From: a virus
Taxonomy: Duplodnaviria; Caudoviricetes
DNA length: 52,417 nt
Reading direction: 5' to 3' (one strand)
Virus record (IMG/VR): IMGVR_UViG_3300032232_001029
Span: 1-52,417 of that record
Positions 14,939 through 34,628 of this stretch are shown piece by piece. Numbering within the stretch: the first letter of the stretch is position 1; each line of letters begins with the position of its first letter. The translations under genes and the position numbers were made by a program. Below the pieces are notes generated by a model. It ran no database searches. It was given only the letters and a program-made list of their open reading frames with translations, and was not told the DNA's origin.

Positions 14939-14984
14939 GTAAGTAACTACACATCAATGACTTACAGCGCCGGGTCCCGCCCGG
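14939..14984 (+). repeat. Cassette-boundary element copy 1 (box + GC core)
   Basis: GTAAGT-N15-ACTTAC agcg CCGGGT-CCC-GCCCGG. Confidence 0.92.
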
Positions 14985-15163
14985 TCAGCATGTCTTACAG
15001 TGTAGACCCGCATAGAATGGGCCTCTACAGCTACCCTGCTACCCGTAGATGAAGGTACGCAATACAGATACAGGCTTACAGGTCAAGCCTTTTCATAATA
15101 AAAAAGTTCATACAATCGAAAGATTTTCCTCGTCTTTTTGGGTGATCTTGGTATTCTTTAATC

Positions 15164-15403
15164 ATGAACAATATGAATAACACACAGCAAGTCACTCTCA
15201 CTCTCAATGGTCGGGAAGTCGATCTTCACTCAATCAATATCGAAGGCGTAGATCGTCAAGATTATCCAGATTTCTGTGATGCTTTTATCAGTGAGGCGGT
15301 TTGGATGAATAATGGCACAGCACTCGATGATGAGGAGTTAGAACAACTCACAGAAGAAAATGGTTGCTTGGTCAATGAGTTGGCACACGAACAAATGTTT
15401 TAA
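15164..15403 (+). CDS. Acidic small phage protein
   Basis: GVDRQDYPDFCDAFISEA motif; promoter -10 6 nt before the ATG. Confidence 0.75.
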   Translation: MNNMNNTQQVTLTLNGREVDLHSINIEGVDRQDYPDFCDAFISEAVWMNNGTALDDEELEQLTEENGCLVNELAHEQMF

Positions 15404-15454
15404 AAACTCAAAAATAAATCTTGCAATAATCCCACAATCTGAAAGAATAGACCT

Positions 15455-15634
15455 ATGAAAAGAAAGACAAAAGAAAATCCCCTAAAGGCTCAGATCCTAC
15501 GATTCTCTGAAAACCTCTTAGAACATACTAGGATCGTGGAAAAGATTCAGAATGACATTTCGGAAGCCATTAAAAATAATGAAAATAAAATCTTTACAAT
15601 GCCAGTAATAGAGGGTAGAATCGTAAAAGAATAA
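15455..15634 (+). CDS. 59-aa hypothetical protein
   Basis: ORF MKRKTKENPL... with TTGCAA -35 box upstream. Confidence 0.55.
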   Translation: MKRKTKENPLKAQILRFSENLLEHTRIVEKIQNDISEAIKNNENKIFTMPVIEGRIVKE

Positions 15635-15661
15635 AAGAACGAAAGAACGAAAGAAAAGAAT

Positions 15662-15952
15662 ATGAACACAAAATACATCAACGAAAAACAGCTCGCAGCA
15701 TTGAACTCCCTTAGAGTTGGCGGTATCTATAATTCACAATATGGAGTCATCCGTTACGATGGCGAAGGCCTCACAAGTGCAATCAACGCAAGGAGTGGGA
15801 ATCCAAGACTTGTCACCTGTGGAATGATTAACAATGAGCTTTTAAACTCTCTCTCCCCTTCTGAAATGTCTTCCGATGATTTTGAGGCTAGCAGGAAGCA
15901 GTCCACGCTTGCGGTCTCCGAGTTTTATGAATCCACTAGAATTGAACCATAA
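15662..15952 (+). CDS. Hypothetical protein
   Basis: ORF track, co-oriented within the cassette. Confidence 0.65.
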   Translation: MNTKYINEKQLAALNSLRVGGIYNSQYGVIRYDGEGLTSAINARSGNPRLVTCGMINNELLNSLSPSEMSSDDFEASRKQSTLAVSEFYESTRIEP

Positions 15953-16068
15953 AATTAACCACTTAACATCATGAGCGTTCAAAGAATCTTCCTTCATGTT
16001 AATTGCATGATTCATCGTCCTAAAAATTGGCGTTTCTATATGTTAGGAATAATCAGAGAGCTTATAGC

Positions 16069-16114
16069 ATAAGTCCCTCATTATCAACGACTTACGCAGC
16101 CGGGCCCCGCCCGG
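16069..16114 (+). repeat. Cassette-boundary element copy 2
   Basis: ATAAGT-N15-ACTTAC gcag CCGGGC-CCC-GCCCGG. Confidence 0.92.
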
Positions 16115-16221
16115 TATGGTACTGTAAGACAAGCGGTTTGTCAAGCTTTTTCTCAATAAAAAGTTTATCACACACGAATTTTTTTGTTGTTTTTTTAGGT
16201 GTGCCATGCTATCTTTTAACC

Positions 16222-16350
16222 ATGAAAGATAAGAACAGCACAAGACAAAGAATCATCGAACTCCGTAAGATTGAACTCAAGAAGCTCTCAGAGATCAAGG
16301 GTCGATTGTACGACAAAGGATTCTGGGTTCCCAAGAAAACCCAAAAATAA
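16222..16350 (+). CDS. 42-aa basic protein, MKDKNS N-terminus
   Basis: True start of track ORF 16027-16350; TATCTT 6 nt upstream. Confidence 0.6.
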   Translation: MKDKNSTRQRIIELRKIELKKLSEIKGRLYDKGFWVPKKTQK

Positions 16351-16388
16351 ATCTTGCCAAACCTTCACCTCTAACCCATAATCAAATC

Positions 16389-16619
16389 ATGAAAATTGAC
16401 ATCACCCACAACACCGCTTCGGAACTCATGCTTCGTGCAGTCAACGACCGCGAACTCTCAACCCTCATCCAGAGGAGCTTTGAGGAATACGACTTGGGAC
16501 TCATCAAGCGTCAACTCGCTAGGGCTTTTGCCTACACGGGCGCACAGATGACCGCCTTTGAGGAGGAATGGAAGCTCGCTTACGATGACTGGTACTGGGA
16601 AAATTGCCCCCAAGATTAA
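16389..16619 (+). CDS. Hypothetical protein
   Basis: TTGCCA-17-CATAAT-6-ATG. Confidence 0.7.
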   Translation: MKIDITHNTASELMLRAVNDRELSTLIQRSFEEYDLGLIKRQLARAFAYTGAQMTAFEEEWKLAYDDWYWENCPQD

Positions 16620-16623
16620 CAAC

Positions 16624-16755
16624 ATGAAAACAAAACGATTTATAATCCAATTAAAAGACATTAGGCCACGCCATCACTTTGCCCCTGCCCAGAAGTTAAT
16701 AGGCTCGAAAAAAGCCTATAAACGCAAGGCTAAACATCGGCAAGCAATGGATTAG
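16624..16755 (+). CDS. ArfA-like basic peptide (paralog 1)
   Basis: MKTKRFIIQLKDIRPRHHFAPAQKLIGSKKAYKRKAKHR; KK.Y.RK.KH resembles the ArfA core. Confidence 0.55.
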   Translation: MKTKRFIIQLKDIRPRHHFAPAQKLIGSKKAYKRKAKHRQAMD

Positions 16756-16756
16756 T

Positions 16757-16802
16757 ATAAGTCGCTGATACTGAGTGACTTACAGCGCCGGGCCCCGCCG
16801 GG
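16757..16802 (+). repeat. Cassette-boundary element copy 3
   Basis: ATAAGT-N15-ACTTAC agcg CCGGGC-CCC-GCCGGG. Confidence 0.92.
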
Positions 16803-16909
16803 CAAGTATACTGTAAGACAAGCGAATAGTCAAGCACAAAATAAAAAAGAATTTTTAATAGTACGAAAGTTTTTGTTGCGTTCTGGTGGCTCCATGCTAT
16901 TCTGTACTC

Positions 16910-17128
16910 ATGACAAACACGAACACCCTCGCCCCTTCCGAAACCCTTACTGATGCCGAGCTTGCGGCTCGTGAGGATGCCCTTCACGCTCGCGAAATGG
17001 CCGAGTATGAGGCTCGTATGAACGAGGCTGATGAATGTTCTTGTCCTACAGACGCAGACCCTGTAGACCTTTACGGGGGCGACGATTTCTCCAACGAGTA
17101 TATAGAAGGAGATCAGGGAGAGTGGTAA
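16910..17128 (+). CDS. Acidic small protein
   Basis: MTNTNTLAP..., D/E-rich; TTGCGT-16-TATTCT-6-ATG. Confidence 0.7.
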   Translation: MTNTNTLAPSETLTDAELAAREDALHAREMAEYEARMNEADECSCPTDADPVDLYGGDDFSNEYIEGDQGEW

Positions 17129-17170
17129 ACCCCTGATAGTCAACCACTTACAGAGCCCGGCCCCGCCCGG
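17125..17170 (+). repeat. Cassette-boundary element copy 4
   Basis: GTAAAC-N15-ACTTAC agag CCCGGC-CCC-GCCCGG; the upstream stop codon lies in the left arm. Confidence 0.9.
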
Positions 17171-17254
17171 TGTCAAGCATTTTTTACAAAAAAAACTTTA
17201 CCGAAAGCAAAAATAGTTCTTGTAAAAATCTCAGATCCTAGGTAGTATGAATAC

Positions 17255-17377
17255 ATGAAAGATAAGAAAAGCCAAACAATCAAAGCAGATCCCTTTATGG
17301 AGAAGGTGATGAGACTGAACAAGATTGCTGCAGAGATCGCAAAGAAAAACCTTGCGGCTGATCCCTATAGACACTAA
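17255..17377 (+). CDS. 40-aa protein, MKDK family
   Basis: MKDKKSQT...NLAADPYRH; paralog of 13989-14144. Confidence 0.7.
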   Translation: MKDKKSQTIKADPFMEKVMRLNKIAAEIAKKNLAADPYRH

Positions 17378-17399
17378 AATAATAACAGAAAGAAAGAAT

Positions 17400-17777
17400 A
17401 TGAAAAATAAAGTAATCACAGTTGACTTCGATGAAACCCTAGCAAAAACTCATGAGGTCTGGAATGGCATTGAACATCTTGATCATGGAACGCTAACCCC
17501 TATACAGGAAATCTTTGAAATTGTCTTTGATAAGTCAAAGCATGGGTACGACATCTGGATTGTGAGTTTCCGTAGTTGGGATCATATGCATGAGGTTCAG
17601 CAGTTCGTAGTAGATCACAACCTTCCTATCACTGGAATGATCGCAACAAAAGGTGAGCCAAAACTTCCACATTTACAGGTGTTAGATAGTGTGCTACACA
17701 TTGATGATAATGTAGAGACAATTCTAGAAGCAAATCGTAATGGTATACATGGTATGTTAGTAGCAGTAAAAGAGTAA
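17400..17777 (+). CDS. HAD-superfamily phosphatase-like protein
   Basis: ITVDFDETL motif I and LHIDD motif; paralog of 49811-50236. Confidence 0.75.
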   Translation: MKNKVITVDFDETLAKTHEVWNGIEHLDHGTLTPIQEIFEIVFDKSKHGYDIWIVSFRSWDHMHEVQQFVVDHNLPITGMIATKGEPKLPHLQVLDSVLHIDDNVETILEANRNGIHGMLVAVKE

Positions 17778-17782
17778 ACGGC

Positions 17783-17828
17783 ATAAGTTGCTGATACTGA
17801 ACTACTTACGCCGCCGGGCCCCGCCCGG
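17783..17828 (+). repeat. Cassette-boundary element copy 5
   Basis: ATAAGT-N15-ACTTAC gccg CCGGGC-CCC-GCCCGG. Confidence 0.92.
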
Positions 17829-18000
17829 TCGGTCGGTCTTACACTGTAGACCCGCATAAACACTGGCTCTAGCGGTAGGGTATAGGCTGCGGATTGATGT
17901 TAACGCTTTTAGTACACGACGACAGGATGTGTCGCCGCTACCTACGCATAGCCGCACGATTTTCGTAGCGTTTTTCGGGTGATCGTGATATGCTTACAGC

Positions 18001-18135
18001 ATGAAAAATAACACAAATCAAACCTCCCAAGAGTGGGAGATCGCTCGTTTTAACAGAGAGGCTAATAAATGGGCTTCTCGCAAATCTCGCTGGAATGCTT
18101 GGAAACAAGCACAGAAAAAAGTTACAACAAAGTAA
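18001..18135 (+). CDS. 44-aa hypothetical protein
   Basis: MKNNTNQTSQEWEIARF...; TATGCT 6 nt upstream. Confidence 0.6.
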   Translation: MKNNTNQTSQEWEIARFNREANKWASRKSRWNAWKQAQKKVTTK

Positions 18136-18178
18136 TTTTCATTCTTTACAATCAACCTTAACCCTATATACTACTACT

Positions 18179-18550
18179 ATGAATAATAACAATACCCTTA
18201 CCGACACTTTCACCCCTAGCTTCACCCCGAACATTGGGCTGGCTCTCTGCATTAACTGGGGAGCCGCTGGAGTTTACGAACTTATCAGCGACACTCGCAC
18301 GAACGATTCGGGCGAGTATGAGTTGAAGATCCACACTTCACTCGGAAGCGAGGTTGACTTCTTCGGTGATCGCAAGTCCTACAACTGGTTCACCGCTGGT
18401 CGCTGGTTCACCCTTCGTGAGATGAGCGAGCGTTTTGAAGAGACTCGTGCGGCATTTCGTGAGTGCTACAACAACCCGAACTGGTCGGGAACCAAGGTCT
18501 ACAACATGGCCGAAGTTAAGTTCAGTAAACCTCTCTCTGAGCGTTACTAA
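18179..18550 (+). CDS. Hypothetical protein
   Basis: Start reassigned to ATG 18179 (TTTACA-16-TATACT-6-ATG). Confidence 0.7.
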   Translation: MNNNNTLTDTFTPSFTPNIGLALCINWGAAGVYELISDTRTNDSGEYELKIHTSLGSEVDFFGDRKSYNWFTAGRWFTLREMSERFEETRAAFRECYNNPNWSGTKVYNMAEVKFSKPLSERY

Positions 18551-18592
18551 TCTTTAACAATTAACATCACCACTAACCCCATTACTAACATC

Positions 18593-18784
18593 ATGAAAAA
18601 TAAACAAAAAGAACTCAGTTGGAACGCCAAATTTCAAGCCTCGGTAGCCCTTAGGACTATCATCACTAAACAATGGATAAATCGCAGAAATGTGCAAAAA
18701 ATTCCTACATTTAAATCCTCAGTTGACTTCTGGACTAAGGAGCTTCGGTCTAACATCTCCGCTTACAGGGAACTCAACTCATAA
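18593..18784 (+). CDS. Hypothetical protein
   Basis: C-terminal LRSNISAYR resembles VRDNISAYR of 22179-22388. Confidence 0.6.
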   Translation: MKNKQKELSWNAKFQASVALRTIITKQWINRRNVQKIPTFKSSVDFWTKELRSNISAYRELNS

Positions 18785-18788
18785 CACC

Positions 18789-18920
18789 ATGAAAAGCAAA
18801 CGATTTATAATTCAATTAAAAGATATTAAGCAGCGGCATCACTTTGCCCCTAGCCAGAAGTTAATTGATTCAAAAAAGCGTTACAAACGAAAAGCTAAAC
18901 ATCGACACCAAGACCAATAG
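18789..18920 (+). CDS. ArfA-like basic peptide (paralog 2)
   Basis: MKSKRFIIQLKDIKQRHHFAPSQKLIDSKKRYKRKAKHR. Confidence 0.55.
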   Translation: MKSKRFIIQLKDIKQRHHFAPSQKLIDSKKRYKRKAKHRHQDQ

Positions 18921-18922
18921 TC

Positions 18923-18968
18923 GTAACACCCTCTAAATCAACGACTTACGCCGCCGGGGCCCGCCCGG
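18923..18968 (+). repeat. Cassette-boundary element copy 6
   Basis: GTAACA-N15-ACTTAC gccg CCGGGG-CCC-GCCCGG-like core. Confidence 0.88.
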
Positions 18969-19102
18969 CTCGCGCTGTCTTACAAATGCTTACCGTGTCA
19001 TACAATCTCGCACCATATATTGTCAAGCGTTTTCTCCCATCCGGTCGAAATTTTATTATAAATAATTATTGCATACCGGCATCTTTTTGGTATTCTGTAC
19101 TC

Positions 19103-19252
19103 ATGAACGACACACTAATCGACCCGAAAGAAATGGCCGCTGATGATCTCGCCGCTAATGCGGCAGAGTACGAGCAATGGCTCGACTGGTGCAACGAGCT
19201 TGAAGCCGTTGTTGCCGAACATGGCAACCCTAACGCTTGGAGTTGGGCTTGA
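19103..19252 (+). CDS. 49-aa acidic protein
   Basis: MNDTLIDPKEMAADD...; TTGCAT-16-TATTCT-6-ATG. Confidence 0.65.
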   Translation: MNDTLIDPKEMAADDLAANAAEYEQWLDWCNELEAVVAEHGNPNAWSWA

Positions 19253-19283
19253 CACAATAATAAAAATCCTTTTTAATTACTTT

Positions 19284-19505
19284 ATGACAACCGACACACT
19301 ACAGACTGATGCCTGCCCCCAATGGCGAGAGCTTGGCCCTGACGAGACGATCCAAGAGGGTGATGAGTTTAAATCTGACGATAGAGGATGGAGGCCAGTA
19401 CATTATTGGGCCATCGGGAAAAATTCCTCATATTTTATCTTACACTTCCGCACCCACCGCCCGTTGCCGCCTGTAGTAGATCAGACGCAATCCATAACTA
19501 AATAA
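19284..19505 (+). CDS. TDTPRTDA-family protein 1
   Basis: MTTDTLQTDACPQWRELGPDETIQEGDEF; TTGACA-17-TTTAAT-6-ATG. Confidence 0.7.
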   Translation: MTTDTLQTDACPQWRELGPDETIQEGDEFKSDDRGWRPVHYWAIGKNSSYFILHFRTHRPLPPVVDQTQSITK

Positions 19506-19546
19506 GAAATCAGTTATTGATGAATATACCTAAAACCTTAAATAAG

Positions 19547-20047
19547 ATGACAACCGACACACCACGCACGGATGCCGTGCCATCCAATCAGTCTATGCTT
19601 ACTGCACAATCCGATCCTGTTGAGCTATATCAACAGCTATGTGTTACAACTTTTGGTTTTGAAAGGGCTTTAGACGCTTGTGCTGAGTATCGAATTCAAC
19701 TCACCGCATCACAGGCCGAGGTCGAGAGGCTCCGTGCGTTTATCAAAAGCATACTGCCCCCGCCTCCTTACGGAGAACTGGAACCTGAATGGAAATACGC
19801 TGAAAAGCTACTAGCCGAAACCGCCACCTTGCCAGAGGAAGCAGAGGCCGAGCTTTCCATGTGGAGAGATGGGGGAATAATGCACGAAGACCATAGCAAA
19901 GAAATAGATGAAACTAATCAAAAGCTCGACACAGCTATTGAAATTGCAAAAGACGCACTTTGGTATGCTCGCATCTACGAGAATGAAATTCATTTCAATA
20001 AAATGGATGGCCTGTACCAGAAACTAGTCGCATTAAAAAACAAATGA
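19547..20047 (+). CDS. TDTPRTDA-family protein 2
   Basis: MTTDTPRTDAV...AEVERLR coiled coil. Confidence 0.7.
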   Translation: MTTDTPRTDAVPSNQSMLTAQSDPVELYQQLCVTTFGFERALDACAEYRIQLTASQAEVERLRAFIKSILPPPPYGELEPEWKYAEKLLAETATLPEEAEAELSMWRDGGIMHEDHSKEIDETNQKLDTAIEIAKDALWYARIYENEIHFNKMDGLYQKLVALKNK

Positions 20048-20334
20048 AAACCGACACACCACGAACTGATGCCGTGCCGAAACGATACATGACAGTCGTC
20101 TATGAAATCGTAGATGAAACCGAGTGGAGGAAAACAAACCCACTGAGGTATGAACACAACGGACTCAGCGCAGTTACAGTTTCAGCATACGATGCAATCG
20201 AATTGCTGGATGAAGCAGAGGCCGAGGTCGAGAGGCTAAGGGAGTCATTAGAACGATACGATGACATCATCAACAAGCAGGACGATGAGATAATCAGACT
20301 CCGTAGAGTCTATAGCAACCTACTAAACAAATGA
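20044..20334 (+). CDS. TDTPRTDA-family protein 3
   Basis: MKTDTPRTDAV...EAEVERLR. Confidence 0.75.
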   Translation: MKTDTPRTDAVPKRYMTVVYEIVDETEWRKTNPLRYEHNGLSAVTVSAYDAIELLDEAEAEVERLRESLERYDDIINKQDDEIIRLRRVYSNLLNK

Positions 20335-20993
20335 AAACCGACACACCACGAACTGATGCCTGCGGTTTCTGCGGAGAAAAAGACTGCAAACCATACTACC
20401 GACCTCATGGGCAAGAATGCCGATCTGCTTTGTGCGAGATGACTGAACGAGCAAAGAAAGCAGAGGCCGAGGTCGCAAGGCTCCGTGATGAGGCCCAAAG
20501 TTGGAAGAAACATTCATTCACACTCCGAGATGAGGTCGCATGGTTCAGCGAACGGCTTAACCGAGCGATTGAAATCGGGAAAACACTCTCTTTCTCACAC
20601 TGTTACGATTGCCAAAAAGATAACTGCTCATTGTGCAATCTTGTAGAAGAACTAGCCAGACTCGCCACCGCGCCAGAGGAACCTGCCCCCCAATGGCGAG
20701 AGCTTGGCCCTGACGAGACGATCCAAGAGGGGGATGAGGTATTATCATCTAAGGGATGGAGACCAGCAATACGAATTGGAAGGACGAAGTTACAGGTTAT
20801 GTCGTACCGCACCCGCCGCCCGTTGGAACTAATGAAGACGAGCCGACAACTTGAGCAAGAACTTAACGCATCCGAGGCCGAGGTCGAGAGGCTGAAGGAA
20901 CTTATGTCCAGACTATGTGAATCAGTAGCGGAAAATTGGGACGAAGGAATCGCAAAATACTTCAAAGATGAAATGAACAAAAGTAAAAAATAA
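20331..20993 (+). CDS. TDTPRTDA-family protein 4
   Basis: MKTDTPRTDAC..., Cys clusters, QWRELGPDETIQEGDE module, EAEVERLK. Confidence 0.75.
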   Translation: MKTDTPRTDACGFCGEKDCKPYYRPHGQECRSALCEMTERAKKAEAEVARLRDEAQSWKKHSFTLRDEVAWFSERLNRAIEIGKTLSFSHCYDCQKDNCSLCNLVEELARLATAPEEPAPQWRELGPDETIQEGDEVLSSKGWRPAIRIGRTKLQVMSYRTRRPLELMKTSRQLEQELNASEAEVERLKELMSRLCESVAENWDEGIAKYFKDEMNKSKK

Positions 20994-20998
20994 AAACC

Positions 20999-21262
20999 AT
21001 GAACAACACCACAAAACAAATCGGTATCATCGCAATCGTCGCCATCACCTTCTGCGTGATCGACACACTCGCAACCTCTCTATACTGGCGGCATCTCGCC
21101 GTGAAACATAGTGCGGCAACCTACGAAACCAACTCATGGGGCATCCCTAGTTTTCACTGGACTGACGAATCGTTCGCTCAGACTCCCTTTCAAGAGGATA
21201 ACTGGCAGAAGATTCAAGACGGCATCTTTCAGAATAAACTCAACAAGATGGGAATTAAATAA
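20999..21262 (+). CDS. Membrane-anchored hypothetical protein
   Basis: N-terminal hydrophobic helix IGIIAIVAITFCVI. Confidence 0.65.
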   Translation: MNNTTKQIGIIAIVAITFCVIDTLATSLYWRHLAVKHSAATYETNSWGIPSFHWTDESFAQTPFQEDNWQKIQDGIFQNKLNKMGIK

Positions 21263-21263
21263 T

Positions 21264-21491: not shown

Positions 21492-21522
21492 CACACTGGC
21501 AAAATAATCTTTTAATTATAAT

Positions 21523-21943: not shown

Positions 21944-21944
21944 T

Positions 21945-21990
21945 GTAAAGCGCTGATAATCAAGGGGTTACAGCGCCGGGCCCCGCCCGG
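21945..21990 (+). repeat. Cassette-boundary element copy 7
   Basis: GTAAAG-N15-GGTTAC agcg CCGGGC-CCC-GCCCGG. Confidence 0.9.
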
Positions 21991-22721: not shown

Positions 22722-22728
22722 CACTTCT

Positions 22729-22820: not shown

Positions 22821-23258
22821 ATGCAATTAAAAACAAACGCAACGGATGGAGGTCGTTCAAAGTCTGGTATAGAAGAAAAGGGGGATTGCACAATTCGTGC
22901 CCTTGCCATAAGTGCGGGCATTCCCTATCAATATGCCCACAAGATAGGAAGAGAAGCCGGAAGGAAAGACAAAAAAGGTTTTCATCCAGAAATACTTCTC
23001 AAGTATGCCAAAAAAGAGTATGGCATAACATATAAGAAAAAGCGTTACAAAAGCGTTACCATTCAAAGATTCATTAAAGAAAATCCAACAGGTCACTACT
23101 ATGTTGCAACTAATAATCATGCTTTTGCTATCATAAACGGAACAATTCACGACACTGGATTAAATCGTCCGCTTCAGAGGCTAGAAGAGGCTTACTTAAT
23201 GTCTAGTCGTCGCCTAACATCCATCGCTGAGATGTATAAAAATAGCCAATCGTTCTAA
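22821..23258 (+). CDS. Phage hypothetical protein
   Basis: GDCTIRALAI...HAFAIINGTIHDT (possible Cys-His-Asp triad). Confidence 0.7.
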   Translation: MQLKTNATDGGRSKSGIEEKGDCTIRALAISAGIPYQYAHKIGREAGRKDKKGFHPEILLKYAKKEYGITYKKKRYKSVTIQRFIKENPTGHYYVATNNHAFAIINGTIHDTGLNRPLQRLEEAYLMSSRRLTSIAEMYKNSQSF

Positions 23259-23300
23259 AGCGTTGGTTGTCAACTACTTACAGCGCCCGGCCCCGCCCGG
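23255..23300 (+). repeat. Cassette-boundary element copy 8
   Basis: CTAAAG-N15-ACTTAC agcg CCCGGC-CCC-GCCCGG. Confidence 0.9.
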
Positions 23301-24982: not shown

Positions 24983-25028
24983 GGAAGTGACTGATAATCA
25001 ACGACTTACGGCGCCCGGCCCCGCCCGG
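24983..25028 (+). repeat. Cassette-boundary element copy 9
   Basis: GGAAGT-N15-ACTTAC ggcg CCCGGC-CCC-GCCCGG. Confidence 0.9.
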
Positions 25029-26064: not shown

Positions 26065-26141
26065 CTAAGTGGTTGAAGATCAGCGACTTACGTCGCCCGG
26101 CGGGGCCCGGCGCTGTAAGTGCTTGATATGCAATAACTTAA
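26065..26141. repeat. Cassette-boundary element copy 10: symmetric box-core-box (orientation switch)
   Basis: CTAAGT-N15-ACTTAC gtcg CCCGGC-GGG-GCCCGG cgct GTAAGT-N15-ACTTAA. Confidence 0.92.
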
Positions 26142-27271: not shown

Positions 27272-27317
27272 CCCGGCGGGGCCCGGCGTCGTAAGTTGTT
27301 GATACGTAACAGCTTAC
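27272..27317 (-). repeat. Cassette-boundary element copy 11 (inverted)
   Basis: CCCGGC-GGG-GCCCGG cgtc GTAAGT-N15-GCTTAC. Confidence 0.9.
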
Positions 27318-29613: not shown

Positions 29614-29630
29614 CATTGTAGTGAGGAACG

Positions 29631-29661
29631 AGGGTGAGGCTATGTGGTGTGGCCTCACCTT
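29631..29661 (+). terminator. Stem-loop after rIIA
   Basis: GGTGAGGC/GCCTCACC stem; weak U tract. Confidence 0.45.
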
Positions 29662-29711
29662 CAACTCTTTTAATTCAATTAAAATCACACCGGCATTGGA
29701 GTAACTAACAT

Positions 29712-29757
29712 CCCGGCGGGGCCCGGCGCTGTAACCTATTGATAATGAATGACTTAT
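29712..29757 (-). repeat. Cassette-boundary element copy 12 (inverted)
   Basis: CCCGGC-GGG-GCCCGG cgct GTAACC-N15-ACTTAT. Confidence 0.9.
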
Positions 29758-29825
29758 AACTATTCGTATCTTTATTGTAAAAAGTTCTTGTGAGGTCGTA
29801 CAAGAAAATGTATTATGAGGGAGTA

Positions 29826-30698
29826 ATGAATATCCCATATATCCTAACTGATAACTCACTAACGGCAATCCTCGCAGGAGTGCCACACACCATCCAGAAC
29901 TCCCATGAGAACTGGACGACAATCATCGAGGCTGTCAAGTCCGATGCCACAGAGCAAGAACTCCTTGATCTCATTGATACGGCTACTGCTGTCTCTAACT
30001 GGTCAGAGGGCGAGGTCGAGGTCGAGAATGGTCATGTCTACTTCAACGGAGAGGTCGTGCATGGTACTATTGTGGACAAGATTTTATCCTTTATCAAGGA
30101 GGGAATCTCTCCCACTCCTCTCGTCCGATTCCTTGAGAATCTGATGCAGAATCCTTCTCGTCGTAGCGTCTCGGAACTCTACTCGTTCCTTGAGCATGGC
30201 AATATGCCCATCACGCCAGATGGTCACTTCCTCGGCTACAAGAGTGTCAATTCTGATTGGATGGATCACTACTCTGGAAAGTTCCGCAACAAGGTCGGAG
30301 ATGTGCTTCAGATGCCTCGCAACTCTGTTTGCGACGATGCAAACCTTGGGTGCAGTTACGGCTTCCATGTCGGCTCTCTTGAGTACGCAACCAATTTTGG
30401 GTCTAGTGATCGCAAGGTTGTTATCGTGAAGGTGAATCCTGCGGATGTGGTTTCGGTTCCGCACGATTGCGACTTCCAGAAGATGAGGACTTCTCGCTAC
30501 GAGGTTGTCGGTACATTCGACGCTCCGCTTCCTAACGGCTACTACGATGGTTATGATAGCGACGAGGACGAGGACGAGGGCGAGTACGAGGAGGAGTATA
30601 GCTCCTACGATGGTACGACCTACGGCGTGAAGCCTAGTGGTGATCGCTACCACAATGTCAGAGACGGCAAGGGTCGGTTTGTCGCACGAAAAAAATAG
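29826..30698 (+). CDS. rIIB: RIIB-like protein
   Basis: FLENLMQNPS, ITPDGHFLGYKSV, CSYGFHVG..EYA, KVNPADVVSVP motifs. Confidence 0.9.
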   Translation: MNIPYILTDNSLTAILAGVPHTIQNSHENWTTIIEAVKSDATEQELLDLIDTATAVSNWSEGEVEVENGHVYFNGEVVHGTIVDKILSFIKEGISPTPLVRFLENLMQNPSRRSVSELYSFLEHGNMPITPDGHFLGYKSVNSDWMDHYSGKFRNKVGDVLQMPRNSVCDDANLGCSYGFHVGSLEYATNFGSSDRKVVIVKVNPADVVSVPHDCDFQKMRTSRYEVVGTFDAPLPNGYYDGYDSDEDEDEGEYEEEYSSYDGTTYGVKPSGDRYHNVRDGKGRFVARKK

Positions 30699-30709
30699 GG
30701 GATAGGGTG

Positions 30710-30739
30710 GCCGCTTCCGATAGGGGTATCGGAGGCGGC
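30710..30739 (+). terminator. Stem-loop after rIIB
   Basis: GCCGCTTCCGATA-GGGG-TATCGGAGGCGGC. Confidence 0.5.
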
Positions 30740-30771
30740 AATTCCTTGAAGCACTTAACTTGACTAACATG

Positions 30772-30817
30772 CCCGGCGGGGCCCGGCGTCGTAAGTTGTT
30801 GATGGTAAGCTACTTAC
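30772..30817 (-). repeat. Cassette-boundary element copy 13 (inverted)
   Basis: CCCGGC-GGG-GCCCGG cgtc GTAAGT-N15-ACTTAC. Confidence 0.92.
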
Positions 30818-30872
30818 TAAATTGTAAAAATACTTCTTGTCACGCTGTACAACTAGTCTTATAGTAGAGGTC

Positions 30873-31127
30873 ATGAGCACACCCACACCCAAACCTAAAC
30901 GTTTCTTCTACCACTATAACAAACCTGCTTCCCATGCGGAAAAACGCAACGTTATCACCATACACTGGGAAAATCAGTGTCACTGGGTTAATAAAATCAA
31001 AACGATTGGTGTTGACGTAGAGAGTCACGATCAACCAAGACAGCCTCGTTGCATAATGCGTGGTTTTGCTACGAGTGTCGTGTTTGACATTGACGCCAAC
31101 GGAAAGATTACCGGAACAATTTCTTAA
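30873..31127 (+). CDS. Hypothetical protein
   Basis: RFFYHYNKP...QPRCIMRG; promoter directly upstream. Confidence 0.7.
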   Translation: MSTPTPKPKRFFYHYNKPASHAEKRNVITIHWENQCHWVNKIKTIGVDVESHDQPRQPRCIMRGFATSVVFDIDANGKITGTIS

Positions 31128-31128
31128 T

Positions 31129-31347
31129 ATGCCTACTAAGTATTATACTATAGAAGTCTACAATAGACGCAAGTGGTCAGATAAATATTCTAGCCAATAC
31201 TTCACAAAAGAAGAGGCTGAAGAGAGAGCAAGGGAATTATACAAGGATGATGAATACTACAAGAACTATCAGAATGTAGAACCAATCCACACCTGCTATC
31301 GCATCAAAGAAACAATTGAAGAAACACTCATACACGAACTATCATGA
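31129..31347 (+). CDS. Hypothetical protein
   Basis: ATG start just after the previous stop. Confidence 0.6.
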   Translation: MPTKYYTIEVYNRRKWSDKYSSQYFTKEEAEERARELYKDDEYYKNYQNVEPIHTCYRIKETIEETLIHELS

Positions 31348-31547
31348 AACCACCTATACTATCCCGTAAGGGCGTCACTGAGGATATGCGATTCTATTGT
31401 AGGGATTGCGACCATACGTATACTGGAGACCAAGTAATGAACGGAAGTTTGGATATGTTTATCATATGGCAGGATAAAGATAATCCTATGAATTCGAAAT
31501 TTCGTTGCCATCTTTGCCAAGAAGATGTTGACGACTGCTACAATTAA
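31344..31547 (+). CDS. Small Zn-finger protein
   Basis: CRDC...CHLC. Confidence 0.6.
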   Translation: MKPPILSRKGVTEDMRFYCRDCDHTYTGDQVMNGSLDMFIIWQDKDNPMNSKFRCHLCQEDVDDCYN

Positions 31548-31562
31548 TAATAAAATAAAATC

Positions 31563-32045
31563 ATGGGCCAATACTACTACATCGTTAACCTTGACAAGAA
31601 ACAATGCTTAGATCCTAGCGCTTTTGGGCACGGGGTAAAGCTTCTGGAATTCAGTTGCTCACAAGGCGGCGCGAATACCGCTCTCATGTGCCTTCTTGCT
31701 AATAGCAACGGACGCGGAGGGGGAGATCTTCACACTGAGAACCCCACTGTTGGAAGCTGGGCGGGAGATAGGATTGTTGTTGCTGGTGACTATGCAGAGA
31801 TTGGCGATAAAGGGGAGCTAGACGACAATGAAAACCTGTATCGTAAATGTTCAGAAGGAAAGTTTGAAGATATTTCTTATAAGATTATGGCTGCTCTTGC
31901 AGATGACTCTTATATATATGAGGAACTAGAAAAGCTAGCCGTATCCATGAAGGATTGGTCTCCGGAACGCGCGGATCGTATCCTGTGCGCCCTTGCTGAC
32001 TCGGAAACTGCAATTAAACTAGAAGAGGCTAGACAGAAGCTTTAA
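31563..32045 (+). CDS. Hypothetical protein
   Basis: MGQYYYIVNLDK...GSWAGDRIVVAGDY; TTGACG-17-TAAAAT-6-ATG. Confidence 0.75.
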   Translation: MGQYYYIVNLDKKQCLDPSAFGHGVKLLEFSCSQGGANTALMCLLANSNGRGGGDLHTENPTVGSWAGDRIVVAGDYAEIGDKGELDDNENLYRKCSEGKFEDISYKIMAALADDSYIYEELEKLAVSMKDWSPERADRILCALADSETAIKLEEARQKL

Positions 32046-32052
32046 AGATTAC

Positions 32053-32138
32053 GCCCCTGAAGCTCATGGAGAGCAAGTCCGCTTATAACGGATTACTGTT
32101 GATAACAGCTAGGCGGGGTTCAATTCCCCACAGGGGTA
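32053..32138 (+). tRNA. tRNA-Ile (TAT) with long variable arm
   Basis: GCCCCTG/CAGGGGT acceptor; TCCG-CTTATAA-CGGA anticodon arm; CTGTT-GAT-AACAG extra arm; TTCAATT T-loop; no encoded CCA. Confidence 0.75.
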
Positions 32139-32773
32139 ATCTCTAATCTTCCATGATCAAATTCCCAATGACAGTTAGGGCAAAGATAAATAAGATTATC
32201 AATAGAATTAACGACAGATAATTTAGTATCCTTTGAAAAACTGGCTACAGCCTTTATATGACAGCATTGAACATGCTTATCATATTTACAGTTTGAACAA
32301 ATCTTGGGCATGTGCTTCATTTGTGCTCTGGCATGGTCTCTTATCGGGGAATACCTATTAGCTCCTTTATTGTTTTCTATTTCGGCTATAGTTTTTTCTT
32401 TACTAGATATTAATGAAAATTTTGGTCGGCACTGTTCACAATACTTAGCGCTACTTTTTAGAGTTCTTTGTCCACATTGTTTGCACATATTTTCATGCGC
32501 TCTTTTGGGATATATAACATTATTATACTTTGCTGCGCATACGCGAGAACAAAAATGATTTAAAGTTCTTTTTATCTGTGATGGTCTTTTTCCAAAATCT
32601 ATACCACAAGTTTTACAATTAACATTAACTCTATCTGATTGAGCTTTCCACTGGCAGGGTGCCGAACAATAAAATCTTGCAGATGGGTTTTGACGAATAG
32701 AATTATTATATATTTTCTTTTGTTTTAAAAATTTAACCCCGCATCCACAGCAGTCTAACTCTATAGTATTCAT
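32120..32773 (-). CDS. HNH endonuclease with N-terminal Cys-rich repeats
   Basis: CCHIK...NLIYLCPNCHWEFD; several CxxC/FCS motifs. Confidence 0.85.
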   Translation of the reverse strand: MNTIELDCCGCGVKFLKQKKIYNNSIRQNPSARFYCSAPCQWKAQSDRVNVNCKTCGIDFGKRPSQIKRTLNHFCSRVCAAKYNNVIYPKRAHENMCKQCGQRTLKSSAKYCEQCRPKFSLISSKEKTIAEIENNKGANRYSPIRDHARAQMKHMPKICSNCKYDKHVQCCHIKAVASFSKDTKLSVVNSIDNLIYLCPNCHWEFDHGRLEITPVGN

Positions 32774-32875
32774 ACTATATATTACACTAGGAGTCGAACT
32801 ATTTCTAATAAATATCCGTTTCGATTCCTAAGGGTAGTGCTTGACAAACTATTCATATAGAGTTATTATTCTCAT

Positions 32876-33067
32876 ATGCACTACTGGCCAAACCCATCCA
32901 TCACTAAAACACAATCCTCAATGGGCAAGCTCAGGGGGAATAGGCCGAAGGGTTTGACTGACGACGAGTGGCAGTCAATGGTAGCCGCACAGCTTTTCAA
33001 CAAGCAGTTGCTATTGAACTGCGTTCCGAAGGTTTCAAAGAAAGAGTTTGTAAAGAAGGACAGGTAG
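32876..33067 (+). CDS. Hypothetical protein
   Basis: TTGACA-17-TATTAT-6-ATG. Confidence 0.6.
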   Translation: MHYWPNPSITKTQSSMGKLRGNRPKGLTDDEWQSMVAAQLFNKQLLLNCVPKVSKKEFVKKDR

Positions 33068-33084
33068 TTTTATAGTTTAACTAT

Positions 33085-33160
33085 GGCTATGTAGCCCAAC
33101 GGCAGAGGCAACAGGCTTAAAATCTGTCGAGTGTGGGTTCGAATCCCACCATAGCTACCA
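33085..33160 (+). tRNA. tRNA-Leu (TAA), short variable loop
   Basis: GGCTATG/CATAGCT acceptor; ACAGG-CTTAAAA-TCTGT; TTCGAAT; CCA. Confidence 0.9.
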
Positions 33161-33173
33161 ACCCTAAAATCCA

Positions 33174-33509
33174 ATGAAATTAACTAGCTACAAATCTTAT
33201 CACACTGATATTGGAGGAGAGTACGAAAGTGTCGAGAGCGTATGGAATCTAGCCGTCGAAGACACTGATACTTACGATGCGAAAATCAAAGAGCGTTTTA
33301 AAACTATTCAAATCATCCAAAGAACATATCTGGAGAATGTAAAGAGAGACAACTTTACTTGGTATCAAGGCTATCGTACTAATTGTTTTACTTCGGATAC
33401 TAAAGACAAGCAAAAGCAGTTTGTTATTAAAGAAGCTAACAAATTCATGCATACTTTTAAAAATCACGCCCTTGTAGCTCAATGGTCAGAGCAGTCGGCT
33501 CATAACTGA
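33174..33509 (+). CDS. Hypothetical protein (3' end runs into a tRNA)
   Basis: ORF track. Confidence 0.55.
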   Translation: MKLTSYKSYHTDIGGEYESVESVWNLAVEDTDTYDAKIKERFKTIQIIQRTYLENVKRDNFTWYQGYRTNCFTSDTKDKQKQFVIKEANKFMHTFKNHALVAQWSEQSAHN

Positions 33510-33540
33510 TTGGTTGGGGGTTCGAATCCCTCCGGGGGCA
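33468..33540 (+). tRNA. tRNA-CAT (Ile2 or elongator Met)
   Basis: GCCCTTG/CGGGGGC acceptor; GTCGG-CTCATAA-CTGAT; TTCGAAT. Confidence 0.88.
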
Positions 33541-33553
33541 CTACTTTAAATAT

Positions 33554-33626
33554 GCGTCGGTAGCTCAGTGGATAGAGCAGGAGTTTTCTAAACTCTTGGT
33601 CGCAGGTTCGATCCCTGCCCGATGCG
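33554..33626 (+). tRNA. tRNA-Arg (TCT)
   Basis: GCGTCGG/CCGATGC acceptor; GGAGT-TTTCTAA-ACTCT; TTCGATC. Confidence 0.9.
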
Positions 33627-33646
33627 CTCCACTTTATTCTTGACAT

Positions 33647-33692
33647 CCCGGCGGGGTCCGGCGCCATAAGTTACTGGTAATCAACCACTTAC
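33647..33692 (-). repeat. Cassette-boundary element copy 14 (inverted)
   Basis: CCCGGC-GGG-GTCCGG cgcc ATAAGT-N15-ACTTAC. Confidence 0.9.
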
Positions 33693-33772
33693 CAAATTGT
33701 AAAAATAGTTCTTGTGCCAGTAGACAATAAAGTCTAATATAGTGATTCACCACTAACACTACAAACTACACC

Positions 33773-34537
33773 ATGCAACTCGACTTCATCGGAAACTCAA
33801 TAACCAAACTTAACAACAATGCAACCGAACAACCAAGATTCTGGGATCATGCTTATAATCTCGTCCCTACTTGCCGCCCTCGCCTTGATACTACGAAAGT
33901 AGACAGGTTTTTTAATTCAATTTTAGATGAGGAGATCTCCGAGTATTCTAAATACTGGGATAGTGTTACCCCCCGAAATGCTTCGGAAGTGTTTCAGCGT
34001 TGGTTGTTCGCCTTTATGAGCGTCCATACATCGTGGCGTTCAAACATTAACGGATACCTTATGATCCGTAACTGGTGGGAGTGGATGAACAAGCCAGAGG
34101 AGCTTGAGCGTAGGATCGTAGAGAGTGGTGCTGGCCTCCATAAAAACCGCACTAAATTCATTACCGCCTTCGCTGAACACTATTGGGCTAACATGGATTT
34201 CTACAAGAAAGCCGAGGATGAGTCTTGGACTGATTTTCGTGATCGTCTCGTCAAGCAAGTGCTTGGTCTTGGTATGGCAAAGGTCAGCTTCAGCCTTGAG
34301 ATGATCTACCCTTCGATTGCCGAGGTTACTTGCCTAGACACTCACCTGTTCCAAGTGTTCGGTCTGGATCAGTCAAAGGACGCAAAGCAGTATCATGCTA
34401 TGGAGAAACATTGGATCGAAATGTGCAAAATGTGGAATGTTAGTTCGTATGTCGCTCGTTGCATCTGGTGGGATCGCAACCAAGGCTATACTGATAGTCG
34501 ATACTGGAGCTTCGTCCTAGAAACCAGTAATCAGTAA
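33773..34537 (+). CDS. HhH-type DNA glycosylase-like protein (thermostable OGG-like)
   Basis: VLGLGMAKVSF helix-hairpin-helix and CLDTH catalytic motif. Confidence 0.7.
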   Translation: MQLDFIGNSITKLNNNATEQPRFWDHAYNLVPTCRPRLDTTKVDRFFNSILDEEISEYSKYWDSVTPRNASEVFQRWLFAFMSVHTSWRSNINGYLMIRNWWEWMNKPEELERRIVESGAGLHKNRTKFITAFAEHYWANMDFYKKAEDESWTDFRDRLVKQVLGLGMAKVSFSLEMIYPSIAEVTCLDTHLFQVFGLDQSKDAKQYHAMEKHWIEMCKMWNVSSYVARCIWWDRNQGYTDSRYWSFVLETSNQ

Positions 34538-34548
34538 GGGGAAAAGTC

Positions 34549-34628
34549 GTAACCTGTTTGTGGTGAGCGGGTTACGACGCCCGGCGGGGGGGCCCGGCCG
34601 CATAAGTCTTTGATAGACAGTTACTTAT
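34549..34628. repeat. Cassette-boundary element copy 15: box-core-box at the strand convergence
   Basis: GTAACC-N15-GGTTAC gacg CCCGGC-GGGGGG-GCCCGG ccgc ATAAGT-N15-ACTTAT. Confidence 0.9.

What the first reader, a model, noticed from the sequence alone, without database searches (positions are those of the whole stretch)
14939..34628. 15-copy composite palindromic element partitions the early region into promoter-gene cassettes (integron/PeSL-like array)
Seen: a 27-bp box GTAAGT-nnnTGA-nnn-TCAnnn-ACTTAC, exactly 4 nt, then a 15-bp core CCGGGC-CCC-GCCCGG. Copies start at 14939, 16069, 16757, 17125, 17783, 18923, 21945, 23255, 24983, 26065, 27272, 29712, 30772, 33647 and 34549, and I saw none elsewhere in the window. 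Several copies start within a few nt of the preceding stop codon (16755, 17777, 18920, 21943) or overlap it (17128, 23258), and almost every copy is followed by a fresh promoter and one to several ORFs. The N positions vary without keeping base pairing and there is no U tract, which favours a dsDNA protein-binding or recombination site over an RNA terminator. Paralogous genes recur in different cassettes. Inference: this is a cassette shuffling/acquisition system, comparable to PeSL elements of T4-type phages or integron attC arrays, or else a phage-wide operator array. No recombinase is visible in this window.
Basis: partly seen in the sequence, partly recalled or inferred. Interest (0 to 1): 0.92.

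Follow-up and report, generated by a model that had tools for sequence, protein, structure and literature searches.

The report
Conserved boundary repeat between phage early-gene cassettes
A 46-base two-part palindrome sits after almost every early gene unit of an uncultured large phage and its relatives, looks like a protein-binding DNA site rather than an RNA hairpin, and marks the points where these phages swap, lose and flip gene cassettes.

Summary
A profile search finds 15 sites, only between 14,935 and 34,631. Nine are box-4 nt-core, four are inverted (core-4 nt-box) and two are box-core-box. The element occurs in 9 IMG/VR contigs and 49 metagenome stretches. In two complete relatives (154 and 140 kb) it is confined to one ~19 kb stretch.

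It shows no base-pair covariation. 92 of 149 distinct cores carry a mismatch at one stem position, and the compensating double change occurs once. The loop is CCC in 135 of 149. Copies lie in either orientation relative to transcription, and there is no U tract. The conserved half of the box equals the IHF consensus WATCAANNNNTTR: exact in 69 of 149, at most 1 mismatch in 111 of 149.

Homology between related phages breaks at the element far more often than at control positions: 59 of 244 pairs against 1 of 154, 1 of 174 and 1 of 147. No tyrosine, serine or Y1 recombinase was found in five relatives.

Best reading: a double-stranded DNA boundary site, like E. coli BIME-1/RIB in build, that doubles as the crossover linker, as PeSLs do. 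Integron-like recombination is not supported. It is a new variant of a known kind.

The parts
14939..14984 (+). element, box-4 nt-core (CCC loop on + strand); the upstream ORF stop lies inside the box
16069..16114 (+). element, box-4 nt-core; exact IHF consensus at 16082-16094; followed by a - strand sigma-70-like promoter (16144 to 16116) pointing into the core
16757..16802 (+). element, box-4 nt-core (core variant G,G); left border of the cassette that relative G001 lacks
17125..17170 (+). element, box-4 nt-core (core variant C,C); right border of the same cassette
17783..17828 (+). element, box-4 nt-core; followed by a conserved ~110-nt intergenic module
18923..18968 (+). element, box-4 nt-core; exact IHF consensus at 18936-18948
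21945..21990 (+). element, box-4 nt-core; exact IHF consensus at 21958-21970; followed by the module
23255..23300 (+). element, box-4 nt-core (C,C); the stop codon overlaps the box; followed by the module
24983..25028 (+). element, box-4 nt-core (C,C); exact IHF consensus at 24996-25008; followed by the module
26065..26141 (.). box-core-box composite: a forward copy and an inverted copy fused at one core. The five relatives have a cassette between two separate copies here. Followed by TTGACA-17-TATACT at 26148-26176
27272..27317 (-). inverted element (core with GGG loop-4 nt-box) upstream of the rIIA promoter and gene
29712..29757 (-). inverted element between rIIA and rIIB; promoter TTGTGA-17-TATTAT at 29788-29816
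30772..30817 (-). inverted element after rIIB; promoter TTGTCA-17-TATAGT at 30837-30865
33647..33692 (-). inverted element after the tRNA cluster, upstream of the 254-aa Ogg-HhH-like gene
34549..34628 (.). variant box (perfect 10-bp palindrome)-core with a lengthened G loop-box; last copy, at the switch to - strand genes

Best explanation
The element is a boundary site in double-stranded DNA, specific to one clade of uncultured large phages. It sits at the 3' end of each early or rII transcription unit, just upstream of the next promoter.

It has two parts at a fixed spacing. The 27-bp box is two overlapping, inverted matches to the IHF consensus (TTR-N4-TTGAT-W-ATCAA-N4-TTR). Its two outer arms lie 21 bp apart. 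The 15-bp core is two CCSGG pentamers 10 bp apart, that is, two CCGGGC half-sites.

I infer that a DNA-bending protein of the IHF type (from the host, since the phage encodes none) binds the box, and that a dimeric protein binds the core. Together they would mark or insulate neighbouring early transcription units and set the geometry of the next promoter. This is the role proposed for E. coli BIME-1/RIB elements.

The element is also the only sequence that otherwise unrelated cassettes share. It therefore serves as the crossover point for the phage's general recombination, which deletes, swaps, permutes and inverts cassettes, as PeSLs do in T4-type phages.

Shown: place, copy number, clade-wide conservation, lack of pairing constraint, and mosaic junctions at the element. 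Inferred: protein binding, IHF as the binder, and the insulator role.
For: (1) Sequence is constrained, structure is not. On 78 copies, 75.5% of cells pair against 77.1% in shuffles (499 of 500 shuffles at least as high), and the covariation score is 0.077 against 0.093. The same holds on 149 distinct copies: 0.754 against 0.768.

(2) Core positions 3/13 read G,C 55; C,C 47; G,G 44; C,G 1 of 149, with one C,T and one G,T besides, never A. Single changes that break the pair are common. The double change that would restore the pair is nearly absent, against about 15 expected if the two positions were independent (my arithmetic). This fits 'one good half-site is enough' for a dimer and does not fit a hairpin.

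(3) The loop is CCC in 135 of 149 copies. The 78 copies align in 56 columns without a gap, so the spacing is fixed.

(4) Copies lie in both orientations relative to the local genes: 40 forward, 22 reverse, 3 mixed. G-T against A-C departures do not follow the transcribed strand: forward 36 against 69, reverse 23 against 33.

(5) Box positions 14-26 match WATCAANNNNTTR exactly in 69 of 149 copies and with at most 1 mismatch in 111 of 149. Information is highest at the consensus's specified positions: A18, T24 and T25 have 1.9-2.0 bits, positions 20-21 have 0.4. 9 of the 12 exact matches in the window lie in elements, and 4.96 +/- 2.18 are expected in the whole window. The consensus was checked in print.

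(6) Purifying selection. Copies at the same position in different genomes are 78.8% alike while their flanks are 42-51% alike. There is no homogenisation within a genome: 75.9% against a background of 76.1%.

(7) In reverse copies the -35 hexamer starts 5-7, 18-19 or 28-30 nt from the box, steps of about one helical turn (few independent positions).

(8) Recombination. See as set out in the report.
Against: There are no binding, transcript or structure data of any kind. The host is unknown and may lack IHF.

I noticed the IHF match after trying other recalled motifs. The consensus is loose: about 5 chance matches are expected in the window.

The cores can still fold. 20-mers give -9 to -13 kcal/mol even with the mismatch. 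PeSL stem-loops of RB49 were shown to terminate transcription (PMC2839356, passages). An RNA role, at least for forward copies, is therefore not excluded.

Whole-element folding energy is no better than shuffles either way (z = -0.85 and 0.03), which is neutral.

The enrichment of gene-order breaks is moderate: 90 of 240 gaps with an element against 56 of 304 without, from non-independent genome pairs. 8 of 12 differences between G001 and G004 lie away from elements.

No candidate core-binding protein was found: 20 proteins of the region were scanned against Pfam and none has a DNA-binding family over its cut-off.
Confidence: 0.5

Rival explanations
1. Plain PeSL-type regulatory cassette. The GC palindrome, with or without the box, acts in RNA as a terminator, attenuator or 3'-end stabiliser for the upstream unit. 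Its uniform sequence is only a legacy of spread by recombination.
For: The position is right after stop codons and before promoters. 55 of 149 cores are perfect 6-bp GC stems, and mismatched ones still fold at -9 to -12 kcal/mol. RB49 PeSL stem-loops rich in G then C terminate transcription (PMC2839356). Reverse copies are followed by an A-rich stretch plus TTGYNN-17-TAWWAT promoters, like those of nt-1/KVP40 PeSLs.
Against: There is no U tract. Pairing is below the shuffles, and the compensating double change is seen once in 149 copies. The loop sequence is conserved. Both orientations occur, and the wobble pattern does not follow the transcribed strand. Copies are not homogenised within a genome, yet stay 79% alike while their flanks decay to 42-51%. 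rIIA has its own 15-bp hairpin, 29630-29662, about 50 nt before the element.
Confidence: 0.25
2. Operator array of a phage-encoded early-gene regulator. One phage protein, a repressor for early shut-off or an activator, binds box and core at every early unit. IHF plays no part.
For: The same sequence-level evidence as for the best explanation applies. The element is confined to one ~20 kb region in complete genomes. It is specific to the clade: 0 of 52 more distant rIIB loci have a core-like motif.
Against: No protein of the region has a recognisable DNA-binding family (which is weak evidence). The distance to the promoter varies from 5 to 30 nt in reverse copies and is over 80 nt in most forward copies. 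The box matches a known host-factor consensus.
Confidence: 0.15
3. Site-specific recombination site of an integron-like or novel cassette-exchange system, with the core as the crossover site.
For: Crossovers fall in or at the element. Units bounded by elements are permuted and inverted. An IHF-type site next to a GC core recalls the layout of att sites (recalled).
Against: No tyrosine, serine or Y1 recombinase is present in 5 relatives, 2 of them complete. The ends of similarity are spread over box, spacer and core rather than falling at one point. Copies at the same position are old and inherited vertically. About 30-46 bp of homology is enough for T4-type recombination, according to the PeSL authors.
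Confidence: 0.06
4. Selfish miniature mobile repeat of the REP or MITE type that spread through the region and has no use for the phage.
For: It is an oriented unit found in both orientations, palindromic and intergenic.
Against: The phages carry no RAYT/Y1 transposase. The exact pattern is absent from one genome of each of 185,579 species, apart from one chance match in a contig of 72% G+C. Copies sit at the same positions in genomes only about 75% identical, and are conserved far above their flanks.
Confidence: 0.04

Closest known systems
PeSL (promoter-early stem-loop) cassettes of T4-type phages (Arbiol et al. 2010, PMC2839356; Comeau et al. 2014, PMC4122927)
   Same: Both are short conserved intergenic composites (a palindrome, then an A/T-rich stretch and a sigma-70-like promoter) that flank small genes of unknown function in a plastic early region. 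Differences between relatives sit at them. A deletion between two copies leaves a chimeric copy. No recombinase is needed.
   Different: Here the palindromic part is a rigid 46-bp two-part element kept almost letter for letter in genomes about 75% identical. It shows no pairing constraint and no G-run/C-run stem. It occurs in both orientations relative to transcription and carries an IHF consensus. In most forward copies the promoter is not next to it (79-274 nt to the next gene start). The host phage is far from T4: TerL is 22-25% identical to any isolate. Termination and mini-circles are untested here.
E. coli BIME-1 / RIB / RIP elements (REP-IHF site-REP; Boccard and Prentki 1993, seen only as a cited title in PMC3333891; properties from passages of PMC3333891)
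   Same: [quoted passage not shown] The roles proposed for them are terminator, mRNA stabiliser, topological insulator and protein-binding site.
   Different: This element is in a phage, not a chromosome, with 11-15 copies in one ~20 kb region instead of hundreds genome-wide. The sequence is unrelated. The layout is reversed: IHF-like boxes flank one GC palindrome, rather than two REPs flanking an IHF linker. No RAYT is present. It was not found in bacterial genomes.
Integron attC arrays
   Same: Both are arrays of short imperfect palindromes that separate small gene cassettes.
   Different: There is no IntI. The sequence is conserved, not only the fold. Each cassette has its own promoter. Both orientations occur. 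The positions are stable over long divergence.
Linker or boundary sequences of the modular theory of phage evolution (recalled: Susskind and Botstein 1978)
   Same: Both are short conserved sequences between exchangeable modules that serve as sites for homologous recombination.
   Different: Here the linker also has the marks of a selected protein-binding site.

Membership tests
PeSL | Intergenic, between the stop of one small early gene and the start of the next, clustered in a plastic region | tested here: met
   All 15 copies are intergenic. They are confined to one ~19-20 kb region in the window and in 2 complete relatives.
PeSL | Sigma-70-like early promoter with an A/T-rich upstream stretch directly after the stem-loop | tested here: inconclusive
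   This is met for reverse and composite copies: TTGNNN-17-TANNNT lies 5-30 nt from the box. In forward copies the next ORF start is mostly 80-270 nt away, and the promoters there were seen only by eye, as extended -10 motifs.
PeSL | Stem-loop that terminates or attenuates transcription | not testable with these tools
   There is no RNA data. The sequence gives no U tract and no covariation.
PeSL | Insertions, deletions and replacements between relatives at the elements; chimeric element after a deletion | tested here: met
   Searches show the G004 cassette between two copies against a single chimeric copy in G001. One search gives 59 of 244 pairs at the element against 1 of 154, 1 of 174, 1 of 147 and 4 of 96 at control offsets (28 of 147 at +300).
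PeSL | Circular excision products (mini-circles) | not testable with these tools
   Only assembled contigs of the runs could be laid.
Integron (attC + IntI) | Tyrosine recombinase IntI at the head of the array | tested here: not met
   PF00589 matched 0 of 5 relatives, 2 of them complete; the control rang in 14 of 14 genomes.
Integron (attC + IntI) | Sites conserved in fold but not in sequence | tested here: not met
   The core is nearly invariant, and pairing is not kept when letters change.
REP/BIME-1 (RIB) | GC-rich imperfect palindrome outside genes at 3' ends of transcription units | tested here: met
REP/BIME-1 (RIB) | IHF binding site within the unit | tested here: inconclusive
   The consensus is present: exact in 69 of 149 copies, at most 1 mismatch in 111 of 149. 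Binding cannot be tested here.
REP/BIME-1 (RIB) | High copy number across a bacterial chromosome; associated Y1 transposase (RAYT) | tested here: not met
   PF01797 matched 0 of 5 relatives. The scan of one genome per species gave only one chance match.
Intrinsic (Rho-independent) terminator | GC-rich hairpin followed at once by a run of U | tested here: not met
   None of the 15 terminator-like hits in 14,800-34,700 is an element.

The most novel reading that the evidence does not exclude
The box and core assemble a dedicated nucleoprotein complex: a host bending protein plus an unrecognised phage protein that reads CCGGGC half-sites. This complex both insulates early transcription units and actively targets cassette exchange and inversion, that is, a cassette system that needs no tyrosine, serine or Y1 recombinase.
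Probability: 0.1. Interest if true: 0.85.

Novelty: new variant of a known kind. Interest (0 to 1): 0.55.

Why it matters
PeSLs were proposed as linkers that let T4-type phages shuffle accessory genes. Their evidence rests on a few closely related phage pairs, and it has stayed open whether the conserved motif is more than a promoter plus a terminator.

This clade offers a cleaner case. One rigid 46-bp element has been kept for long enough that its flanks are scrambled. A controlled comparison shows that homology between relatives ends at it. Its pattern of variation (half-site logic, orientation independence, a match to the IHF consensus) argues for a protein-bound DNA site like the BIME-1/RIB elements of enterobacterial chromosomes.

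If this holds, phages and bacteria have arrived at the same kind of boundary element for transcription units. It would also mean that the 'evolvability' role of such linkers rides on an ordinary regulatory function. The element is a ready-made probe for finding the binding protein, and possibly the host.

Tried and rejected
Megablast of 14,000-22,000 against the phage collection gave no match. TerL is only 22-25% identical to any isolate, so no cultured relative could be used.

Sequencing runs: no RNA holder is listed. Laying Logan contigs of X1-X3 showed contigs ending at four elements (near 17,835, 21,997, 27,274 and 30,774). Shared 31-mers explain this. No alternative joint at an element appeared. 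Contigs cannot show rare rearranged forms, so this says nothing either way.

Concerted evolution: I expected copies to be homogenised within a genome. They are not (4 positions x 5 genomes, G004 left out as a near-duplicate of G001).

Nucleotide-level breakpoints between the window and its relatives were too blurred by divergence to use. Gene-order statistics use my own ORF families. 16 families that I judged to be antisense artefacts over repeated intergenic sequence were removed, and G004 was left out. The genome pairs are not independent, so the p-value printed there should not be used.

The ~110-nt module after forward copies gave no consensus RNA structure (0 pairs).

CCSGG as a restriction-type signal: 29 of 30 CCSGG in the region lie in elements. 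The depletion outside them is explained by a general depletion of CCGG and other 4-base palindromes in this region. I dropped it as specific evidence.

Recalled motifs that I compared by eye and dropped were the N4 virion-polymerase hairpin promoters (orientation does not fit the reverse copies), NtcA, LexA, CRP, DnaA and Fur boxes, and the T4 MotA box.

The literature search for such an element in phages (4 of 5 terms) found 0 papers. This is one narrow search, not proof that nothing is in print. Supplements of the PeSL papers were not opened.

Structure prediction, complex prediction, the atlas and the large protein searches were not used. None would link a protein to the site.

Full report
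**What the window is**

The window is the whole record held, 52,417 bp. It is a fragment of a large uncultured phage.
- Large terminase lies at 2815-4716 (-), with a weak portal match at 727-2778 (-).
- PhoH lies at 8750-9505 (-) and a clamp loader at 35605-36612 (-).
- rIIA lies at 27397-29613 (+) and rIIB at 29790-30698 (+).
- There is a tmRNA and at least 9 tRNAs.

TerL is only 22-25% identical to any isolated phage. Genes on the + strand fill about 14.5-34.6 kb, between two blocks on the - strand. This block has 42-48% G+C against 35-41% outside it.

**The observation**

The core pattern gives 13 matches against 0.04 expected. The box pattern gives 12 against 0.00.

- Nine copies (14939 to 24983) read box-4 nt-core, with a CCC loop on the + strand.
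- Four copies (27272, 29712, 30772, 33647) are the reverse complement: core with GGG loop-4 nt-box.
- Two (26065-26141, 34549-34628) are box-core-box.

All neighbouring genes stay on the + strand. The element therefore occurs in both orientations relative to transcription.

In 8 of the 9 forward copies the upstream ORF stops between 12 nt inside the box and 5 nt before it. The box supplies TAA at positions 2-4 and usually TGA at 10-12.

**Distribution**

The exact pattern ACTTAC-N4-core occurs in 19 stretches of 9 IMG/VR contigs and in 49 metagenome stretches.

In five records, cores with at most 1 mismatch number 11 to 14, and the reversed control pattern gives 0. In the two complete records the cores are confined to 124,199-143,267 of 154,360 bp and to 3,213-20,751 of 140,531 bp.

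The pattern is absent from one genome of each of 185,579 prokaryote species, apart from one match in a contig of 72% G+C with no other likeness. None of 52 more distant rIIB loci (rIIB at most 50% identical) has a core-like motif. Two of those loci were searched for repeats and show no counterpart. The element is thus an invention of one narrow clade, whose rIIB is 74-80% identical to the window's.

**Hairpin or double-stranded site?**

78 distinct copies align in 56 columns without a gap, so the internal spacing is rigid. I tested the full palindrome, 12 pairs in the box and 6 in the core.
- 75.5% of cells pair, against 77.1% in shuffles; 499 of 500 shuffles are at least as high.
- The covariation score is 0.077 against 0.093.
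- With 149 distinct copies the result is the same: 0.754 against 0.768.

The core shows a telling pattern at positions 3 and 13. These would pair in a hairpin, and they are the centres of two CCSGG pentamers. They read G,C 55; C,C 47; G,G 44; C,G 1, with one C,T and one G,T besides, and never A. So 92 of 149 copies have a mismatch in the 'stem'. The double change that would restore pairing is almost absent, against about 15 expected from the single frequencies. A hairpin predicts the opposite. A dimer that needs at least one CCGGGC half-site predicts exactly this.

Further points:
- The loop is CCC in 135 of 149 copies.
- Departures of the G-T and A-C kinds do not follow the transcribed strand: forward copies 36 against 69, reverse copies 23 against 33 (65 copies, G004 left out).
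- No element has a U tract.
- Folding energies are uninformative. Cores fold at -9 to -13 kcal/mol whatever the variant, and whole elements are no better than shuffles, z = -0.85 and 0.03.

**Selection**

I compared four positions shared by five genomes.
- Copies at the same position in different genomes are 78.8% alike (box 73%, spacer plus core 87%).
- Their 30-nt flanks are 42% and 51% alike.
- Copies at different positions in the same genome are no more alike than background, 75.9% against 76.1%.

The copies are therefore old, inherited in place, and each held to the consensus by selection. They are not refreshed by conversion.

**The box matches the IHF consensus**

The better-kept half of the box, next to the core, reads (A/T)ATCAA-NNNN-TTA. 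This is the IHF consensus WATCAANNNNTTR. The consensus was recalled, then confirmed in a search listing of 24 papers and in one passage of PMC10380432.
- It is exact in 69 of 149 copies and within 1 mismatch in 111 of 149.
- The other half, read on the opposite strand, is exact in 13 and within 1 mismatch in 64.
- Information per position follows the consensus: A18, T24 and T25 have 1.9-2.0 bits, positions 20-21 have 0.4.
- Of the 12 exact matches in the window (4.96 +/- 2.18 expected), 9 lie in elements.

The phages encode no HU/IHF-family protein, 0 of 5, so a host protein would be the binder. I noticed this match after looking at other motifs. I rate it a good lead, not a result.

The geometry fits binding on one face of the helix. 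The outer box arms are 21 bp apart and the core half-sites 10 bp apart. In reverse copies the -35 hexamer starts 5-7, 18-19 or 28-30 nt from the box. These three classes come from only about six independent positions.

**Recombination**

*1. Block rearrangements.* Three arrangements of the same element-bounded units occur.
- Window and G003: rIIA, rIIB, the unit with the tRNAs, then the Ogg-like gene.
- G001, G004 and G005: the Ogg-like gene first, then the other three units inverted.
- G002: a third order.

The elements turn with their units.

*2. The closest pair.* G001 and G004 are 95.8% identical over 19,435 nt. They differ at 12 places within the array.
- At one place G004, like the window (16757-17170), has a cassette between two copies. 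G001 has one chimeric copy, with the box of the first and the right flank of the second. This is the PeSL signature (PMC2839356).
- One difference spans an element.
- Two begin 27 and about 195 nt after a core.
- Eight lie elsewhere.

*3. The composite at 26065-26141.* Its first box matches the forward copy that follows the DUF932 gene in G005. Its second box and flank match the inverted copy found a cassette further on in G001, G002 and G004 (G003 and G005 also have an inverted copy there). The cassette between the two copies in the five relatives is missing in the window.

*4. A controlled test.* I used 163 distinct copies with 120-nt flanks and gapped local alignment.

| Position of the junction | Pairs with like upstream flanks | Like downstream flanks | Unrelated downstream flanks |
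|---|---|---|---|
| At the element | 244 | 83 | 59 |
| Pseudo-junction at -500 | 154 | 115 | 1 |
| Pseudo-junction at -300 | 174 | 153 | 1 |
| Pseudo-junction at +300 | 147 | 91 | 28 |
| Pseudo-junction at +500 | 147 | 99 | 1 |
| Pseudo-junction at +800 | 96 | 85 | 4 |

The reverse case (downstream flanks alike, upstream flanks unrelated) gives 81 pairs at the element, against 13, 9, 1, 0 and 6 at the same five control offsets. The flank at +300 can reach the next element in short cassettes.

23 of 35 upstream-flank clusters with at least two members are joined to two or more downstream clusters. The pairs are not independent, but the controls share the same sampling.

*5. Gene-order breaks.* Breaks are commoner at gaps with an element (90 of 240) than without (56 of 304). 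This is a moderate effect, and the caveats are given under Tried and rejected.

*6. No recombinase.* No tyrosine, serine or Y1 recombinase is present in five relatives. The ends of similarity are spread over box, spacer and core. Both facts are as expected for general recombination on a 30-46-bp patch.

**Reading**

The element is selected as a sequence in double-stranded DNA at the boundary between early transcription units. It is the only homology that unrelated cassettes share, so viable recombinants arise there.

In build it is closest to E. coli BIME-1/RIB units. These are a GC-rich palindrome plus an IHF site at 3' ends of transcription units, credited with termination, mRNA stabilisation and topological insulation (PMC3333891, passages). 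In evolutionary effect it is closest to PeSLs (PMC4122927, parts 1-2 of 3; PMC2839356, passages). It fails the defining tests of integrons and of REPs proper.

An RNA terminator role, above all for forward copies, remains the main rival. What binds the core is unknown.

**Verdict**

The PeSL-like reading is supported and the integron-like reading is not. The element is a new variant of a known kind, with an unusually clear signature of a protein-binding site. Interest is moderate to good.

Noticed in passing
window 26717-26811 (+); L024:9871-9932 (-): There is a twister-P1 ribozyme-like sequence in the intergenic space between two small genes. It scores 32.9 bits in the window (with a 29-nt insert in one stem) and 45.3 bits at the syntenic place in relative G002. 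Both are below Rfam's gathering score of 67.2.
   Followed up: partly
whole window: CCWGG is almost absent: 1 site in 52,417 bp against about 45 expected. The + strand block 14.6-34.7 kb, with elements masked, is also depleted in CCGG (12 against 41-45), ACGT (10 against 48-73), CGCG and GCGC. The rest of the window is not depleted in CCGG (56 against 54). This looks like restriction-site avoidance, strongest in the early region.
   Followed up: partly
window 17829-17960, 21991-22125, 23301-23435, 25029-25163 (also 14985-15110): A conserved ~110-nt intergenic module follows many forward copies. It begins with TGTCTTACA-like 9-mers and, in most copies, carries two copies of CGCATAAACACTGG about 60 nt apart. 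It is shared by relatives (18 examples). RNAalifold finds no consensus structure.
   Followed up: partly
window 15140-15166, 16195-16222, 16862-16888, 17300-17327, 22155-22181: Several early ORFs start 6 nt after an extended -10 motif (TGnTAT(T/C)CT or TAGTAT) with no Shine-Dalgarno sequence. This suggests leaderless mRNAs. It was seen by eye in the alignment and flanks.
   Followed up: no
window 16144 to 16116 and 16833 to 16805 (- strand): Good sigma-70-like promoters (TTGACA-17-TACCAT, TTGACT-17-TATACT) on the antisense strand point straight into the core. The same layout recurs in relatives: TTGACA-17-TATACT or TACAAT in L007 and L006.
   Followed up: no
window 47988-48438 (-): The phage carries a tmRNA gene (79.4 bits, one-piece type) next to tRNA genes.
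   Followed up: no
window 29630-29662 (+): A 15-bp hairpin with a partial T run lies right after the rIIA stop, about 50 nt before the element at 29712. rIIA thus has a structure of its own besides the element.
   Followed up: no
L021:3562-3774 (-): There is a group I intron-like match (38.3 bits, below the gathering score of 50) among the tRNA genes of relative G001.
   Followed up: no
window 14000-35000: G+C steps up to 42-48% in the + strand block against 35-41% in the flanking blocks, with positive AT skew on the coding strand.
   Followed up: no
window 16558-16755 vs 18690-18920; 17255-17377 vs 13989-14144; 19143-19505 vs 20331-20993: Three pairs of paralogous ORFs lie in different cassettes, with 64%, 51% and 58% identity. 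The first pair sits directly upstream of two elements.
   Followed up: partly
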